Shown in pieces: positions 22,166-39,216 of a stretch of 64,000 nucleotides of DNA. The notes under the pieces were generated by a model. It searched no databases, had not been told where the DNA came from, and saw only the letters and a program-made list of their open reading frames with translations. Origin of the DNA: the human T2T-CHM13v2.0 reference genome, Homo sapiens; NCBI RefSeq assembly GCF_009914755.1, contig NC_060926.1; one strand, 5' to 3'. The first letter of the stretch is position 1; each line of letters opens with the position of its first letter. The position numbers were made by a program, and so were the translations under genes.

Positions 22166-22331
22166 CTTCATTCTGACTTGTATGACTGCCCTGGGCTGTT
22201 TCCAGTTTCTCCAGTGGGAAAGTGCTCCCAAGGAAATTACCTTGCACAGAGGAAAGGCAGATGAAGAACTCATCTCCTAGCTGAATTTTCAACTCGATTT
22301 TCAAATCATTTTCCTTCTTGGTGAGCACAGA
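22166..22331 (-). pseudogene. Decayed dynein heavy chain exon (AAA5 buttress/strut coiled coil)
   Basis: SVLTKKENDLKIELKIQLGDEFFICLSSVQGNFLGSTFPLEKLETA vs recalled DNAH11 [45 protein letters not shown] and DNAH9 [43 protein letters not shown]. Acceptor tttattgctgtttcaa| has AG>AA; frameshift near the 3' end; donor AAG|gttaaa. Confidence 0.8.
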
Positions 22332-23489
22332 TTGAAACAGCAATAAAGACTTTTCAAACTTACAATGTCAGTCTTGTCAACAGAGAAAGCATGCATCACT
22401 GCCCTTCCAACTTGATCATCTCAAGGAGTTTCACTGATTTCACGGCTTCTGTAATTCAATCCCCAGTCAGCTATCCAAAGGGAAATAAAGTGTTATTTTG
22501 CCTTATTGTTGACATGGCTATAGGAAACTAGAGAAATAACTGTTTGTAGAGTTATTTGGAATTAGTGGACCAGGATTAATACCTATTAGGAAACTGGCAT
22601 AAAAGCAACTCGCTCAGAGAGCAGAGAAAGCCCAGCTGGTGGGTGGGAGGTCCCATGGCAACTCCTGTCCCAGGGGAGCAATTTTGCTTTTTACTTTGGT
22701 GACATCATATAAATTCAAAGTGACAAACTTCTCTTAAGGACTTTCCAAATTATTTACCCTCTATTAAGAGCTTAGCTCTCCTCTCATTACTTGTAGAAAT
22801 CATTTAAAGTGATCTCAAACCAGATTTCAAACTGTTATTGAGGACTTGAAAGCTGATAAGAAAAATCACTTAAAGTTTCCAATAACTTGTTTATACCTCT
22901 TATTTCCTTATACCCTTGCACAACTGACCAAAAATAAAAAAGAAAGTGGAAAAAATGGCTACACACATCAAAAAATAATGATAATAAAAGCAAAAAGTAA
23001 CCAGATTAGAGAGATTATATTAGGAAGATAAGGGCAAAAAGGACTATGAGAAAGGTGGAAGGGGTAGGGGAGCAGGAAACAGAGGTAAAAGAATGTTAGA
23101 AAACAGAGACCTATTACTGAATAAGAGATGATTCCATTTCAGAACCATAACCAAAATATGAGAAGTACTAGTCATATCTCAAGTCTTTGCTCACCATGAA
23201 GTCACTCTTTGTAAACATATCCTCAAGGGAAGAAAAGCAATCTAGTACGGCCAACCACTAATCCACAGACTCTGTAATCCAGAATATTAATCCCTAATCC
23301 AGAACACTGTGTGTGTTGGTAGTGGGGAAGGGTTATTCAACAAGGACAACCATATGGATGTATGGGAATTAAGGGTCATAATCCCAAGGAATATGTTGTA
23401 CCTTCAAGGGGCTTATAGTCTGTGTCACTGAACACTGGAAAATAAGTGGCATCCAGCTAGATCCAATGTTTGCTTTTTAGTCACTGTAT

Positions 23490-23935
23490 TCTAATCTGGA
23501 GGCCTGGGCTTCCAGTCTCTTTCAGATTGTTGGCAGAATTCTGTTCCTTGCGGCTGCAGGACTGAGGTCCTTGTTCCCTTTCTGGCTGTCAGCTTGGGGC
23601 TGTTTTCACCTCCTGGAGACTGCCCACATTCCCCACCACTTGGCTTCCTGCATCTTCAAAATTCACACATGGTGAAGTTGAATCCCCCTTGGGCTCTCAA
23701 CCTGACTTGATCCTCTTTTGCAACTAGCCAGAGAAAATCCTCTACTTTTAAAGGGCTCATATAATTATGTCAGGCCCGCTGGGATAATCTTCCTATCTTA
23801 AGGTCAACTGGCTTGGGACCTTAATTACATTTGCAAAAATCCTTTCATGGCAGTGTTTGATTGAATAACTGGGAGAAGGAGTGTGTACTGCAGGCTGAGT
23901 ATCTGGAAAGCTATCTTTGAATTTTGCCTACCATG
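23490..23935 (-). mobile_element. MLT1D-like MaLR LTR
   Basis: ttgttggcagaattctgttccttgcggctg...aattttgcctacca. Confidence 0.8.
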
Positions 23936-24084
23936 GCTTCCTTCTTACATTAGTGGTACTTCTGCTGAAACAGCAACAAGCCAATTTGCTATTTGTATAG
24001 AAATGTCTCTCTAAAAAGCAGAAGGCTGCAATAACATTGCATGATGTATTTTTCAAGATGAATATAGTACTCTTAAAAATCATT

Positions 24085-24400
24085 GGTCTGGGTGTTGTGG
24101 CTAACAACTGTAATCCTAGGACTTTGAGAGGCCAAGGCAGGTGGATCAGTTGAGCCCAAGAGTTTGAGATCAGCCTGCGCAATATGGCAAAACTCCATCT
24201 CCGCACACACACAAAAAATTAGCTGGGCATGGTGGCGTGTGGCTGTGGCTGTAGCTCTAGTCCCAGCTACTAGGAAGGCTGAGGTGGGAGGATCACCTGA
24301 GCCTGGGAGGTTGATGCTGCCGTGAGCTGTGATCATGCCACTGCACTCTAGCCTGGGTGACAGAGTGAGACCTTGTCTCAAAAATAAAAATAAAAATAAA
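24085..24400 (+). mobile_element. AluJ
   Basis: Full dimer, (AAAAAT)n tail. Confidence 0.93.
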
Positions 24401-24462
24401 AAAATCGCCGTACTATTTACAAAAACAGTTCTTAATACTTTTGCATTAAAAGGGTGACTTTA

Positions 24463-36558: not shown

Positions 36559-36846
36559 GGCTGGGTGCAGTGGCTCACGCCTGTAATCTCAGAACTTTGA
36601 GAGGCTGATGTGGGAGGATCACTTGAGGCCTGGAGTCCAACCAGCCTGGGCAACATAGTGAGACCCCGCCATCTCTCCAGAAAATTTTTAAAAAATTGGC
36701 CAGGTGTGATGATGTGCACCTATAGTCCCAGCTACTTGGGAGGCCGAGGCAGGAGCCCAGGAGGTCAAGTCTGTAGTGAACCAAGATAGCACCACTGCAT
36801 TCCAGCCTGAGTGACAGAGCAAGACCTTGTCTCTAAAATAAATATA
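36559..36846 (+). mobile_element. AluJ
   Basis: TSD caaaatacattag. Confidence 0.93.
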
Positions 36847-38906
36847 CAAAATACATTAGAAATAGATAGGGGAAAAGACTTCTTTTCTAAAAAATAAGAC
36901 AAAGACCCGATCATTCAAGTCTCAGGCATACACAAATGTTGCTTCTTCTATTGGGTATAAAAATGAATGAAAACTACAAAGTAGAAATGACATGATTCCA
37001 TAGTACCCATGGTTCCCAAATGCTGCATTATCAGAGCAGTAAGATGTCATGAAACACTCCATCAAATACTTCTCTTAGAAGCATTTCACACTACGAAATC
37101 CACCTTTTTTTGACCTTTTATTTATTTTTACTAAGAAAAACTCAATAATAGTTGCATATAATTAAAAATTTTGCAACACGATTTCCCATACTGATGTTAT
37201 TATTCCAGACATTTATTTCTTTCTGTATGAGGCAGATGATAAGCTTATACATTTTCAAATGTAAAAATAAATTCCTACTATTTAATTGATTTATAATACA
37301 TAATACCAATGGAGCCAATGTAACTGAAATTAATTTCCTTTTTGTTTAATTTTCTGTGTCATGTTTAATAGTTTCACAATCTTTTATAACCACAAAGCAT
37401 TCATGAACCACAAGGAAAATACCTTTAAAGATGAGAGGTTTAAGTCCTCCATTTAGTTATTGCAAATATTTAAATAAAAATACTTCCCACACTAGAAAGT
37501 TATGAAATATTCCTCTTAAATGAACTTGGAAGGGACTGATTTCCATGAAAATGAAAATAAATTTATCAACAAATGAAATGGAAGAAATGTTTTTCGCTGA
37601 ATAATATTAATGAATTAGCCAGTGGTTGGTGACACTGAGCAGCCGCCTATAAGAAAATGTGTTAGAAATTAATCTTCACTGCAAATATGCCCTCAGACAC
37701 ACCCTGTGTCAATAAGGATGTCCTATTATCCTTCCTGATTTTATAGCTCTCGATAATACATACTAATATTCAAATGTCGACATTAAAAAAAAATGGAACT
37801 CTAACACCAAGGGGTTCAAGAAATGATGAAACTTGAGCTCAAGTGAATATACATCCTTTCATTTGTTGCAAAGACCAGACTTATGTGGGTGGGTGGGTGA
37901 CTCTCATCCTGGGGAGGGAGTGGGGCTGTCTGTGTGGCAAAGGTGATTCAGGGAGTCTTAGGGGGCAAGACTACCTCAGAGCCCTCCAGTGACTGTAACC
38001 CTTATCCCAGCCCCAAGAGAGGTGCAGGGTGTAGGTGGCTCCTCAGCTTGTTAATGCTCTTTGCTTCTGATACTAGTGTCCTCTCCTTACTTGCTCCTCA
38101 ATTGTTACTGCTTGGATCCCTCAGTTCTTCCCCATGGAATCCACCCCAGGTCAGATCTCAGCTCTATTCAGAGCTGAGGTAGGATAGAACATTAGAATTG
38201 GAATGAGGGTTGAACTGGGCAGGTGGTCCTGGAGACATCCACTTTTAAGGACTTTTTAAACAGAGTAGAAATGGAAGGGATGGAGTAAATTGTATTTAGG
38301 ATGCATTTCAGGGAGAATAATGTGTCCTGCTGGAAGGAATCTGTTGATGTACCCTTTAGGGTGGGGGAAAGGTTTGGAGAACTCTCTGGTGCGAAGAGCA
38401 TGCTTGAGGTAACCACAAGTGGTGAACAAAGTGCCCCCAAGAAGGGGAGGTCAGCTAAGTTCAAGGCTTTGGTGTTATGCAAAGGACTGTCACAGTGTCC
38501 TCTTATGCGCTTCTCCTATGCAGCCCTCTCTTTTTTTCACTATATGAATGCTGAGTGATTCTTTAAAGGATATTGACTTAAAGTGGTCCCAAGTCATGAC
38601 CCGGGAAGCCCACATGTCTCATTCTGGCTCTTAGGAGGTGGGTTAGGTGGAGTTCTGGCAAAGAGAGGTGTAAGCTGGAGCTCCCCTGAGTTCTGTCTGG
38701 GCTGAGAGGCCAGGGGAGCGGATACACACCACTGTTGGACAAAAACAGTGTGCGGGGTGACACCAGCGGCTAGTGAAGAGCAGAGTGAGCAGATACCTCT
38801 TTAAGTTAATTCTTATAAACTGGCCTTTTTTTTTGTGTCACCATATGTGTATATTATGGATTAGATGTCAGAAAAGCAGTATCTTTCCTGAGAGATTCTT
38901 TTCTCC

Positions 38907-38980
38907 CTTTCTTTCTTTCTTTCTTTCTTTCTTTCTTTCTTTCTTTCTTTCTTTCTTTCTTTCTTTCTTTCTTTCTTTCT
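38907..38980. repeat. (CTTT)n microsatellite
   Basis: About 18 perfect units. Confidence 0.95.
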
Positions 38981-39007
38981 AAAAATCATTTAGAAACAGG
39001 AACAATT

Positions 39008-39216
39008 TTCTGTTCAAATGGTTGCTGTCCCTAAGTGGCTTAAAAACTCCCAGTGGGAAGGACAACAGCCTCTCTGAGGCAGAGTGGCCTCTGTCTGTGA
39101 GAAATATTCACCTACGGGTATGCTTTTCTGGCTTGCTTTATCGCTGGCTTTGCAACTTGGAGATGTAACGTAGCTTGAAATCAACTGTGTGTTTAGCCCT
39201 GCTTTGGTCAGCCTAC
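39008..39216 (-). pseudogene. Heavily decayed dynein heavy chain exon (stalk CC1)
   Basis: ctag|GTA GGC, then with frameshifts VG..KAGLNTQ..LR..ISKLQSQ.DKASQKSI..QTEATLPQRGC...LGTAT..LNR vs recalled DNAH11 VGDLKARLASQ..LR..ITKIGLQTEKVSREKTI..QTEVFQKQREC...LVAAT..LNR. Correct order relative to the other exons. Confidence 0.5.
39017..39185 (+). repeat. Unique-sequence direct duplication, copy A (copy B at 42211-42380)
   Basis: Manual alignment: 5 substitutions + 1 indel over ~170 bp. Confidence 0.95.

What the first reader, a model, noticed from the sequence alone, without database searches (positions are those of the whole stretch)
22166..39216. Fossil multi-exon axonemal dynein heavy chain gene (lost DNAH11 paralogue) on the minus strand
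Seen: at least five separate minus-strand segments (39008-39216, 28889-29023, 27428-27598, 27170-27364, 22166-22331) translate to dynein-like peptides. They lie in N-to-C protein order, are separated by repeat-filled introns, and several sit on splice-site-like boundaries. Known: these peptides correspond to the stalk coiled coils, the AAA5 entry motif (AWxNEGLPxDxxSxENA) and the buttress of outer-arm beta/gamma-type heavy chains (DNAH9/11/17); signatures such as ATAEK.RCQEEVN.TNKTI and LTK..ND.KIELK are DNAH11-like. Inferred: an unprocessed, unitary pseudogene of a fourth DNAH9/11/17-family gene. It is not a retrocopy (introns retained) and not a recent duplicate (best exon only ~69% identical to recalled DNAH11). 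Ordinary annotation would treat this interval as empty intergenic DNA.
Basis: partly seen in the sequence, partly recalled or inferred. Interest (0 to 1): 0.92.

Follow-up and report, generated by a model that had tools for sequence, protein, structure and literature searches.

The report
Fossil dynein gene beside SP3
The human gene desert between CDCA7 and SP3 holds the decayed remains of a fourth outer-arm dynein heavy chain gene that fish, frogs and lizards still use, and one of its 135-base exons is still almost perfectly preserved, probably because that stretch of DNA now does another job.

Summary
Two of five claimed segments are solid dynein exon relics: 28889-29023 and 22166-22331. Two are marginal: 27428-27598 and 27170-27364. 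One, 39008-39216, is chance.

With 200 kb of flank, all 11 tblastn hits of a full-length frog orthologue lie on the minus strand in protein order. Six of them carry stop codons. Further relics at +282 kb, +288 kb and +458 kb stretch the fossil over about 495 kb, from near the CDCA7 end to within about 31 kb of the nearest SP3 exon matched.

It is the mammalian remnant of dnah9l ("DNAH11-like"), the sister copy of DNAH11, which is intact in lizards, frogs and fish.

The 135-nt exon at 28889-29023 stands out. It has no lesion, keeps both splice sites and matches the tetrapod consensus at 42 of 45 residues. Its intron flanks are as conserved as the exon itself. I read it as a conserved non-coding element that outlived its host gene.

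Dong et al. 2010 already published the +458 kb relic as an exonic remnant of a DNAH11 paralogue. This is therefore an extension of known work, not a discovery from nothing.

The parts
28889..29023 (-). Intact 135-nt exon relic, stalk coiled-coil 2 (frog orthologue aa 3323-3367). No stop or indel. Acceptor tttttatttaaag|G and donor GAG|gtgagg are both present.
   Evidence: It matches the tetrapod consensus at 42/45. It keeps 25/27 orthologue-invariant sites.
28801..29059 (-). Conserved block: the exon plus 36 nt of upstream and 88 nt of downstream former intron.
   Evidence: Read-through ORFs from unnamed contigs match the human flanks at 77-93%. Across 18 mammal-like rows the flanks are 92-94% identical and the exon 88-92%.
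22166..22331 (-). Exon relic at the end of AAA5 (aa 3612-3662). It is 48-53% identical, with three extra codons. The acceptor AG is lost. A possible GT donor follows 22166.
   Evidence: It starts at the position equivalent to the DNAH11 exon matching AAA_9 positions 173-222.
50866..51018 (-). Exon relic from the C-terminal part of the microtubule-binding domain (aa 3235-3288). It has one stop and a 4-aa deletion.
   Evidence: It lies within the limits of the equivalent DNAH11 exon.
27393..27541 (-). Possible decayed relic (aa 3387-3435). It needs three frameshifts and one stop. Statistically marginal. Its 5' end overlaps the RefSeq 'enhancer' at 27537-27606.
27168..27217 (-). Possible trace of the AAA5 entry motif (aa 3444-3460). 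Not significant on its own.
   Evidence: no Pfam AAA_9 hit.
39008..39216 (-). Rejected: not distinguishable from chance and out of order.
1..64000 (-). The whole window lies inside the body of the fossil gene. The form takes no places outside 1-64000, so the relics outside the window are listed here in window coordinates, all on the minus strand.

Towards SP3 (5' of the gene):
- 64371-64502: aa 3178-3222, start of the microtubule-binding domain.
- 67673-67819: aa 3092-3140, stalk CC1, one stop.
- 147060-147182: aa 2876-2918, AAA4, one stop, E 0.06-0.2.
- 163392-163547: aa 2753-2807, one stop and a 3-aa deletion.
- 186642-186791: aa 2583-2636, AAA3, 59-67% identical, one stop and a 4-aa deletion.
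- 282249-282449: aa 2050-2116, AAA1, 57-61% identical, no stop.
- 288047-288160: AAA1, E 0.43.
- 457843-458019: aa 307-365, tail region, 47-63% identical, no stop. This appears to be the remnant of Dong et al. 2010.

Towards CDCA7 (3' of the gene):
- -13878 to -14183: aa 3870-3970, AAA6, two stops.
- -18957 to -19166: aa 4039-4111, one stop.
- -28860 to -28955: aa 4293-4324, C-terminal domain, 69-75% identical, no lesion.
- -37159 to -37221: aa 4350-4369, about 17.6 kb from the 3' end of CDCA7.
   Evidence: flanks from -60 kb to +204 kb. (+282, +288 and +458 kb). (Dong et al. 2010, passages). (domain map). The hub gene table gives the position of CDCA7.

Best explanation
This is the unprocessed (unitary) pseudogene of the fourth vertebrate outer-arm dynein beta heavy chain. 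That gene is called dnah9l in fish and 'DNAH11-like' in lizards, frogs, lungfish and sharks, and it is the sister copy of DNAH11. It lies on the minus strand, tail to tail with CDCA7 and downstream of SP3. It once filled the whole CDCA7-SP3 desert, about 495 kb.

Shown: the gene died in the mammalian lineage, and most exons have decayed close to or past detection.

Inferred: death fell roughly 150-300 million years ago, after the split from reptiles and before the human-sheep ancestor.

Shown: one 135-nt exon (28889-29023) with about 36 nt of upstream and 88 nt of downstream former intron has been held nearly constant.

Inferred: that roughly 260-bp block is a conserved non-coding element that was embedded in the gene and outlived it. 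Most likely it is a cis-regulatory element in the SP3/CDCA7 landscape (about 45%). Otherwise it is an exon of an unannotated non-coding transcript (about 20%). As a dynein the locus does nothing.
For: Fossil gene.
- All 11 tblastn hits (E<1) of frog orthologue P0042 to 264 kb are on the minus strand and strictly collinear, from aa 2583 to aa 4369. The same holds for all 44 HSPs of four orthologues. Six of the 11 relics carry stops.
- Further collinear relics: AAA1 at +282 kb (E 0.004 with Pfam; 57-61% to orthologues) and +288 kb (E 0.43), and the tail region at +458 kb (E 7e-9).
- Exon structure is kept. The 135-nt exon has the same length and boundaries as the DNAH11 exon.

Orthology.
- The 45-aa exon is 91% identical to lizard, 89% to frog, 69% to human DNAH11, 55% to DNAH17 and 51% to DNAH9.
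- The tree places the fossil inside the dnah9l-type clade (22 rows, SH-aLRT 100; tetrapod subset 96). Varanus DNAH11 (P0030) falls outside, and the second Varanus protein (P0045) falls inside.
- Seven of 8 diagnostic sites carry the dnah9l state and none the DNAH11 state.

Synteny.
- Dong et al. 2010 show that SP3-CDCA7 is paralogous to SP4-DNAH11-CDCA7L (PMC2831330, passages).
- A sturgeon gene model (P0053) fuses a zinc-finger N-terminus, 96% and 83% identical to human chr2:174.40 Mb where SP3 lies, to a dnah9l-type dynein.
- Zebrafish dnah9l has no human counterpart in the published table (PMC6008050, passages).

Constraint on the exon.
- 25 of 27 orthologue-invariant sites are kept, against 137 of 280 in the other relics (Fisher p 7e-6).
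- Sheep models carry the same exon, 93% identical to the human exon.
- In 18 mammal-like ORFs the upstream 13 codons are 94%, the exon 88-92% and the downstream 7 codons 92% identical to human. The constraint therefore does not respect the exon boundary.
Against: - Only about 15 of an expected roughly 80 exons are detectable. The stretch from +204 to +458 kb was seen only through whole-genome searches, not read.
- The interval 22175 to -13877 gave no relic above the null.
- Pfam AAA_9 finds nothing in the desert, and Pfam DHC_N2 finds nothing there either.
- The fossil attaches beside frogs rather than at the base of amniotes. This is probably because its residues were aligned with a frog query and its branch is long (0.95), but that was not tested.
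- The ORFs that show flank conservation come from unnamed contigs. Their taxa are unknown, and 'mammal-like' or 'lizard-like' rests only on residues shared with named proteins.
- No DNA of other species was available, so codon-position patterns could not be used to separate coding from non-coding constraint.
- No data on chromatin, transcription or enhancer activity were available. The regulatory role is inference.
- The age estimate rests on substitution rates recalled from memory.
Confidence: 0.85

Rival explanations
1. The conserved 135-nt exon is still used as an exon. It would be spliced into an unannotated, conserved non-coding (or small-ORF) transcript, much as some lncRNAs were built from the exons of dead protein-coding genes.
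For: Both splice sites are intact: a polypyrimidine tract with AG, and a GTGAGG donor. The codons spanning them are kept in almost all of the 29 related ORFs. A RefSeq lncRNA (LOC105373744) runs on the same strand 6 kb downstream, and its exon 2 donor at 22363 lies about 30 nt upstream of the next solid relic (and the hub table).
Against: No annotated transcript covers 28801-29059 (hub table). Species where the gene is alive need the splice sites anyway, and in mammals those sites may simply lie inside a conserved block. There is no Rfam family and no unusual RNA folding (z 0.65). The frame is open for only 76 codons.
Confidence: 0.2
2. The good state of the 135-nt exon is luck or a local mutational cold spot, with no selection. 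The whole fossil is neutral DNA.
For: A few other relics are also free of lesions: -28860..-28955, +282 kb and +458 kb. Detected relics are a biased sample of the best survivors.
Against: 25 of 27 invariant sites are kept against 137 of 280 elsewhere, p 7e-6. The comparison set is itself biased upward. The same exon is 93% identical in sheep models and 81-94% identical, with its flanks, in 18 distinct unnamed mammal-like ORF clusters.
Confidence: 0.03
3. The matches come from a duplicated or retrotransposed piece of DNAH11 (or DNAH9/17), not from an old independent gene.
For: DNAH11 is the closest human gene to the best exon, at 69%.
Against: The relics spread over about 495 kb with intron-sized gaps. 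The exon is 64% identical to DNAH11 in DNA, and third positions match at 16/45, which is saturated. It is much closer to lizard and frog dnah9l-type proteins, at 89-91%. The tree and the diagnostic sites exclude the DNAH11 clade.
Confidence: 0.01
4. A cryptic but still functional dynein-related gene is encoded here.
For: Several relics keep open frames.
Against: Six of 11 relics contain stops, and there are several frameshifts and deletions. Most exons, including nearly all of AAA5 and AAA6, cannot be found.
Confidence: 0.01

Closest known systems
dnah9l / 'dynein axonemal heavy chain 11-like' of fish, amphibians and lizards (for example gar P0060, coelacanth P0062, Xenopus P0059, Lacerta P0039)
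   Same: Orthologue. The fossil falls inside this clade. The best exon matches the tetrapod consensus at 42/45. Domain order runs from the tail to the C-terminal domain. Adjacency to sp3 is suggested by a fused sturgeon model.
   Different: Those genes give 3,500-4,900-aa open proteins. The human copy is broken by stops, frameshifts and missing exons.
Human DNAH11 (chr7p15.3, between SP4 and CDCA7L)
   Same: Sister paralogue from the vertebrate genome duplications, in a paralogous SP/CDCA7 block (PMC2831330). The 135-nt exon has the same boundaries, which DNAH9 and DNAH17 do not share: their frames break 3-5 codons earlier.
   Different: DNAH11 is intact. The best exon is only 69% identical in protein and 64% in DNA.
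The 2R 'exonic remnant' of Dong et al. 2010 (Table 4: SP3, hg18 chr2:174454487-174455587, paired with a DNAH11 exon)
   Same: It appears to be the tail-region relic of this same fossil, at window +457.8 kb. That is the only chr2 match to the first 700 residues of the orthologue. The offset from hg18 agrees with that of CDCA7 to within about 70 bp, but the CDCA7 hg18 position is recalled, not computed. Their interpretation is the same: an exon kept for a cis-regulatory role in the SP3 block.
   Different: They reported one exon, about 430 kb from this window. They took the host gene to have been lost during rediploidisation after 2R. Here the gene is shown to survive in many vertebrates and to have left at least 15 relics in human. 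The exon in this window was not reported in the passages I read, and I did not look at the supplements.
Coding exons that double as enhancers, and exon remnants kept as conserved non-coding elements after gene loss (teleost cases in PMC2831330; PMC3206014 seen only as a search listing; eExons of Birnbaum et al. 2012, recalled)
   Same: An exon-sized block conserved after its gene's death, with conservation running into the flanks, inside the landscape of a developmental transcription factor gene.
   Different: No enhancer assay or chromatin evidence was available for this block.
lncRNA exons derived from a dead protein-coding gene (Xist from Lnx3; recalled, not checked)
   Same: A relic exon with intact splice sites in a dead gene.
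   Different: No transcript is known to use this exon.

Membership tests
Dynein heavy chain, outer-arm beta type (DNAH9/11/17/dnah9l) | Match to dynein-specific domains above the curated threshold | tested here: met
   PF12777 gives 43.2 bits against a cut-off of 24 for 28865-29095. PF12774 gives 26.8 bits against a cut-off of 25.2 at +282 kb.
Dynein heavy chain, outer-arm beta type (DNAH9/11/17/dnah9l) | Domains in the canonical order on one strand (tail, AAA1-4, stalk, AAA5-6, C-terminal domain) | tested here: met
   Relics for aa 307-365, 2050-2116 and 2583-4369 are collinear on the minus strand.
Dynein heavy chain, outer-arm beta type (DNAH9/11/17/dnah9l) | Continuous open reading frame of about 4,500 aa with intact ATP-binding sites | tested here: not met
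   Stops in 6 of 11 relics, frameshifts, and most exons undetectable. It is a dead member, not a working one.
dnah9l / DNAH11-like orthologue group | Falls inside the clade, apart from DNAH11, DNAH9 and DNAH17 | tested here: met
   SH-aLRT 100 for the 22-row clade that holds it. Diagnostic sites 7/8. Exon identity over 40 aa is 36 to lizard and frog and 27 to Varanus DNAH11. Caveat: long branch, and the residues were aligned with a frog query.
dnah9l / DNAH11-like orthologue group | Same chromosomal neighbours (sp3 and cdca7) in species with the live gene | tested here: inconclusive
   Only indirect evidence: one sturgeon gene model fuses an SP3-like zinc-finger N-terminus to the dynein. No vertebrate genomes other than human could be read.
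Unitary (unprocessed) pseudogene | Exon-intron structure of the ancestral gene retained | tested here: met
   Relics are separated by 3-80 kb. The 135-nt exon is bounded as in DNAH11.
Unitary (unprocessed) pseudogene | Disabling lesions, and no intact copy elsewhere in the genome | tested here: met
   Lesions. A whole-genome search with the exon finds only this locus (100%), DNAH11 (69%), DNAH17 (55%) and DNAH9 (51%).
Exonic remnant kept as a conserved non-coding / regulatory element (RCE in the sense of Dong et al. 2010) | Exon conserved well above the neutral relics of the same dead gene | tested here: met
   25/27 against 137/280 invariant sites, p 7e-6. The exon is 93% identical to the human exon in sheep models.
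Exonic remnant kept as a conserved non-coding / regulatory element (RCE in the sense of Dong et al. 2010) | Conservation not confined to the coding frame or exon limits | tested here: met
   Flanks are 92-94% identical and the exon 88-92% in 18 mammal-like ORFs. Read-through matches span 29059-28801. This was tested on translated ORFs from unnamed contigs, not on aligned DNA.
Exonic remnant kept as a conserved non-coding / regulatory element (RCE in the sense of Dong et al. 2010) | Demonstrated enhancer activity or enhancer chromatin, and a target gene | not testable with these tools
   No chromatin, contact or reporter data were at hand. The only RefSeq functional element in the window (27537-27606) lies 1.3 kb away.

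The most novel reading that the evidence does not exclude
The roughly 260-bp block around 28889-29023 is an amniote-wide (at least 320-million-year-old) functional element that sat inside the dnah9l gene and has outlived its host at least twice, once in mammals and once in the bird/turtle lineage. Pigeon and sea-turtle models look like patchy pseudogenes whose best-kept pieces include this same exon. On this reading the CDCA7-SP3 'desert' is the husk of a 0.5-Mb gene, kept in place because it carries regulatory elements for SP3 or a neighbour.
Probability: 0.35. Interest if true: 0.65.

Novelty: new member of a known kind. Interest (0 to 1): 0.5.

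Why it matters
It accounts for a 0.5-Mb stretch of human chromosome 2 that is annotated as empty. The stretch is the body of a dead dynein gene.

It fills in the history of the outer-arm dynein family. 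Vertebrates began with four beta-type heavy chains, and mammals lost the partner of DNAH11, the left-right and ciliary-dyskinesia gene.

It corrects the published view that this paralogue vanished right after the genome duplications.

It offers a clean natural experiment. Within one dead gene, most exons record neutral decay over a very long time while one exon and its flanks stayed fixed. That marks a short, precisely bounded candidate regulatory element that can be tested directly.

For annotation and variant interpretation, the block at chr2:173938801-173939059 (T2T) should be treated as constrained non-coding DNA.

Tried and rejected
- An 'RTFPNPP'-like match at 38680-38606 is rejected as chance. 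The true exon for that motif is at 64502-64371.
- My first placement by eye of the AAA5 entry motif, at about 27339-27270, competes with a second placement at 27217-27168. Neither is significant.
- The profile alignment extended the 22331 relic upstream to 22369. That extension runs past the exon boundary seen in DNAH11, DNAH9 and DNAH17, so I do not count it.
- A profile search of 22175 to -13877 for aa 3663-3869 found nothing above the nulls.
- Pfam AAA_9, DHC_N2 and AAA_7 run over the genome gave no hit in the desert.
- Weak, scattered tblastn hits (E 0.2-0.95) came from the fragmentary sheep, pigeon, turtle and alligator models, on both strands. I treat them as noise from the non-dynein parts of those models.
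- Rfam found no family in the window. RNA folding of the conserved block was unremarkable (z 0.65).
- Representatives clustered at 50% identity merge the vertebrate paralogues into a few unnamed rows. They served only as outgroups.
- Literature searches that found nothing: 'dynein heavy chain' with 'unitary pseudogene' and 'DNAH11-like'. 'dnah9l' gave 4 papers, of which I read passages of one, and those say nothing of a human relic.
- The passages of Kollmar 2016 that I read mention dynein pseudogenes in fish and birds and no human fossil.

Full report
**Observation.** I translated the five claimed minus-strand segments. Only 28889-29023 and 22166-22331 gave open, dynein-like frames as written.

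The 45-aa frame at 28889-29023 matches the Pfam dynein stalk family PF12777 at E 3.3e-11, 43.2 bits against a cut-off of 24. It also matches solved DNAH17 and DNAH9 chains at E 3.2e-8 and 3.7e-5.

In the window's own genome the exon finds itself, then chr7:21937426-21937560 at 69% identity (the DNAH11 locus), chr17:79.35 Mb at 55% (DNAH17) and chr17:11.78 Mb at 51% (DNAH9).

**Relatives.** A search of public proteins with the 45-aa exon gave much closer matches than any human gene:
- 93% to two sheep 'hypothetical protein' fragments;
- 91% to a skink protein with a full C-terminal dynein motor (P0007);
- 89% to a frog (P0008) and to a sea-turtle model (P0010), and 86% to pigeon fragments.

A second search returned full-length proteins of 3,400-4,900 aa. 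They are named 'dynein axonemal heavy chain 11-like' in lizards, frogs, salamander, lungfish and chimaera, and 'dnah9l' in gar, coelacanth and teleosts. No mammal and no bird was among the best 120 of 3,067 hits.

Yamaguchi et al. 2018 (PMC6008050, passages read) state that zebrafish has three outer-arm beta genes: dnah9, dnah9l and dnah11. Their table, based on Kollmar 2016, gives Dnah9l no human counterpart.

**The fossil as a whole.** tblastn of these orthologues against the window alone gave two strong hits:
- 29029-28874, E 1e-17;
- 22337-22176, E about 3e-7.

It also gave one weak hit at 51024-50866.

I then fetched 60 kb to the left and 140 kb to the right. Against this 264 kb, frog orthologue P0042 gave 11 hits with E<1. 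All are on the minus strand and all are in protein order, from aa 2583 at +186.8 kb to aa 4369 at -37.2 kb. The four orthologues tried gave 44 such HSPs, with none on the plus strand or out of order.

Six of the 11 relics contain stop codons, and several have small deletions.

- The first 700 residues of the orthologue, searched over the whole genome, hit chr2:174367840-174368001 (-), which is window +457.8 kb, at E 7e-9.
- The Pfam AAA1 model hit chr2:174192249-174192446 (-) at E 0.004 and 174198047-174198160 (-) at E 0.43, again in order.
- Small fetches confirmed two of these relics. The +282 kb relic is 57-61% and the +458 kb relic 47-63% identical to orthologues, and neither has a stop.

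The fossil therefore runs from about 17.6 kb beyond the 3' end of CDCA7 to within about 31 kb of the nearest SP3 exon matched, at chr2:174.399 Mb. That is about 495 kb. A Pfam map of the orthologue assigns the relics to the tail, AAA1, AAA3, AAA4, stalk, microtubule-binding domain, AAA5, AAA6 and C-terminal domain.

I built a profile from 21 orthologues and aligned it to DNA with frameshifts allowed. Column-permuted, reversed and plus-strand controls gave the null.

- 51018-50866 scores 53.9 against 32.9 +/- 3.4 (0 of 30 permutations). It lands where collinearity predicts, inside the limits of the equivalent DNAH11 exon.
- 27541-27393 scores 43.2. That score is reached by 1 of 30 permutations for the collinear interval and 4 of 30 for the whole motor half. 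It is suggestive only.
- The AAA5 entry motif can be placed at 27217-27168 (score 26.7) or, by eye in the translation, at about 27339-27270. At least one placement must be chance. Pfam AAA_9 finds nothing in the desert.
- 39008-39216 scores 34.2 against a null mean of 33.8 (12 of 30), and its best match is to the wrong part of the protein. The stalk and microtubule-binding exons it was taken for lie at 67819-67673 and 64502-64371. It is rejected.

**Which gene it was.** The 135-nt exon and the DNAH11 exon have the same length and boundaries. The DNAH17 and DNAH9 frames break 3-5 codons earlier.

DNA identity to DNAH11 is 64%: 34/45, 36/45 and 16/45 at codon positions 1, 2 and 3. Synonymous sites are saturated, so this is an old divergence and not a recent copy.

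Varanus has both types:
- P0030 matches the human DNAH11 exon at 34 of 40 residues and the fossil at 27.
- P0045 belongs with the dnah9l-type proteins.

At 8 sites that are invariant in the dnah9l type and different in Varanus DNAH11, the fossil has the dnah9l state 7 times and the DNAH11 state never.

I built a maximum-likelihood tree of the stalk region: 47 rows, 291 columns, with 188 fossil residues from four relics and X at stops. It puts the fossil inside the dnah9l-type clade (SH-aLRT 100) and inside its tetrapod part (96). Its exact position beside frogs is not trustworthy. The branch is long (0.95) and the residues were aligned with a frog query.

**Synteny.** Dong et al. 2010 (PMC2831330, passages read including Table 4) show that SP3-CDCA7 on chr2 is paralogous to SP4-DNAH11-CDCA7L on chr7. 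They report that one DNAH11 exonic region aligns to non-coding hg18 chr2:174454487-174455587, and they predict it to be an exonic remnant with a regulatory role. By coordinate offset this is the +457.8 kb relic. The hg18 position of CDCA7 used for that offset is recalled, not computed.

A sturgeon gene model (P0053) has an N-terminal zinc-finger part followed by the dynein. That part is 96% and 83% identical to two exons at human chr2:174.40 Mb, where SP3 lies, against 89% for the SP4 locus and 88% for the SP1 locus. This is what a read-through model would give if sp3 sits just upstream of dnah9l in sturgeon. The evidence is indirect.

**The exceptional exon.** I took sites that are invariant in all orthologues and counted how many each relic keeps.
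- The other relics keep 31-77%. Pooled without the two best relics, that is 137 of 280.
- The 135-nt exon keeps 25 of 27 (Fisher p 7e-6). It matches the tetrapod consensus at 42 of 45.
- The comparison set is itself biased toward survivors.

Both splice sites are intact. The sheep models contain this exon and otherwise little or no dynein sequence.

A search with the 76-codon human read-through frame found 69 short ORFs, nearly all from unnamed contigs. In an alignment of 29 of them with human, 18 carry the F-to-S change shared by human and sheep. Against human these 18 are 94% identical in the 13 codons upstream of the exon, 88-92% in the exon and 92% in the 7 codons downstream.

Two longer ORFs match the human sequence from 29059 to 28801, shifting frame at the donor.

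Nine rows carry the ancestral residues seen in named lizard, turtle or pigeon proteins. They still share much of the flanks: 71% upstream and 78% downstream. Fish-like rows share only the exon.

The conserved unit is thus a block of about 260 bp that ignores the exon limits. This is the signature of a conserved non-coding element rather than of a protein. It matches no Rfam family and folds no better than shuffles.

**Other lineages.** The pigeon model (P0012) and sea-turtle model (P0010) are patchworks of a few dynein pieces at 52-91% identity. The best-kept pigeon pieces are the same two exons that are best kept in human: aa 3320-3368, and aa 4292-4329. This suggests independent decay of the gene in those lineages with retention of the same pieces. 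Poor gene models of a live gene are not excluded.

**Age (inferred).** Retention of about 49% at invariant sites, and a fossil branch of 0.95 changes per residue, imply roughly 0.35-0.45 neutral substitutions per base. With recalled rates for the human lineage that is about 150-300 million years. The loss would then fall after the split from reptiles, since lizards keep the gene, and before the human-sheep ancestor, since both share the dead state and the F-to-S change.

**Verdict.** The finding is a real, very large unitary pseudogene of the DNAH11 sister gene dnah9l. Three exon relics in the window are supported and two traces are doubtful. The kind of object is known, and one distant relic of this same fossil was published in 2010. 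New here are the extent, the orthology to a gene still alive in many vertebrates, and the sharply bounded constrained block at 28801-29059.

Noticed in passing
Own genome, chr12:97534049-98095343 (+), far outside the window: A second apparent fossil dynein heavy chain. Pfam DHC_N2 hits at 97534049 (E 2.5e-6, 1 stop). AAA_6 hits at 97804411 (E 7.6e-6, 1 stop). AAA_7 hits at 98083417 (E 0.12) and 98095137 (E 5e-6, 2 stops). All are on the plus strand and in domain order over about 560 kb, at a place that does not coincide with any dynein gene locus I recall. The AAA_7 piece is closest to distant, unnamed dynein representatives, not to the outer-arm beta type.
   Followed up: partly
window 22364-22470 and 22166-22331: Exon 2 of the RefSeq lncRNA LOC105373744 ends at a GTAAGT donor at 22363. 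That is about 30 nt upstream of the AAA5 relic, on the same strand. The lncRNA may reuse sequence at the edge of the dead gene's exon (and the hub table).
   Followed up: partly
window 27537-27606: The only RefSeq functional element in the window, an 'enhancer', overlaps the 5' end of the doubtful relic at 27541-27393 (hub table).
   Followed up: no
   Followed up: no
Own genome, chr13:88565564-88565875 (-): A single open frame, 81% identical over 104 residues to the SP3-like N-terminus of the sturgeon model, with no intron. It is probably a processed copy of an SP-family gene.
   Followed up: no
L002, chr7:21937561 onward: The DNAH11 exon equivalent to the fossil exon is followed by GCAAGT, so it appears to use a GC rather than a GT donor.
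   Followed up: no
window +182100 to +182337 (locus L022): Two further weak collinear matches (E 0.25) appeared with the Varanus orthologue only. They lie between the AAA3 relic and the AAA3-lid/AAA4 relic and may be another relic.
   Followed up: no
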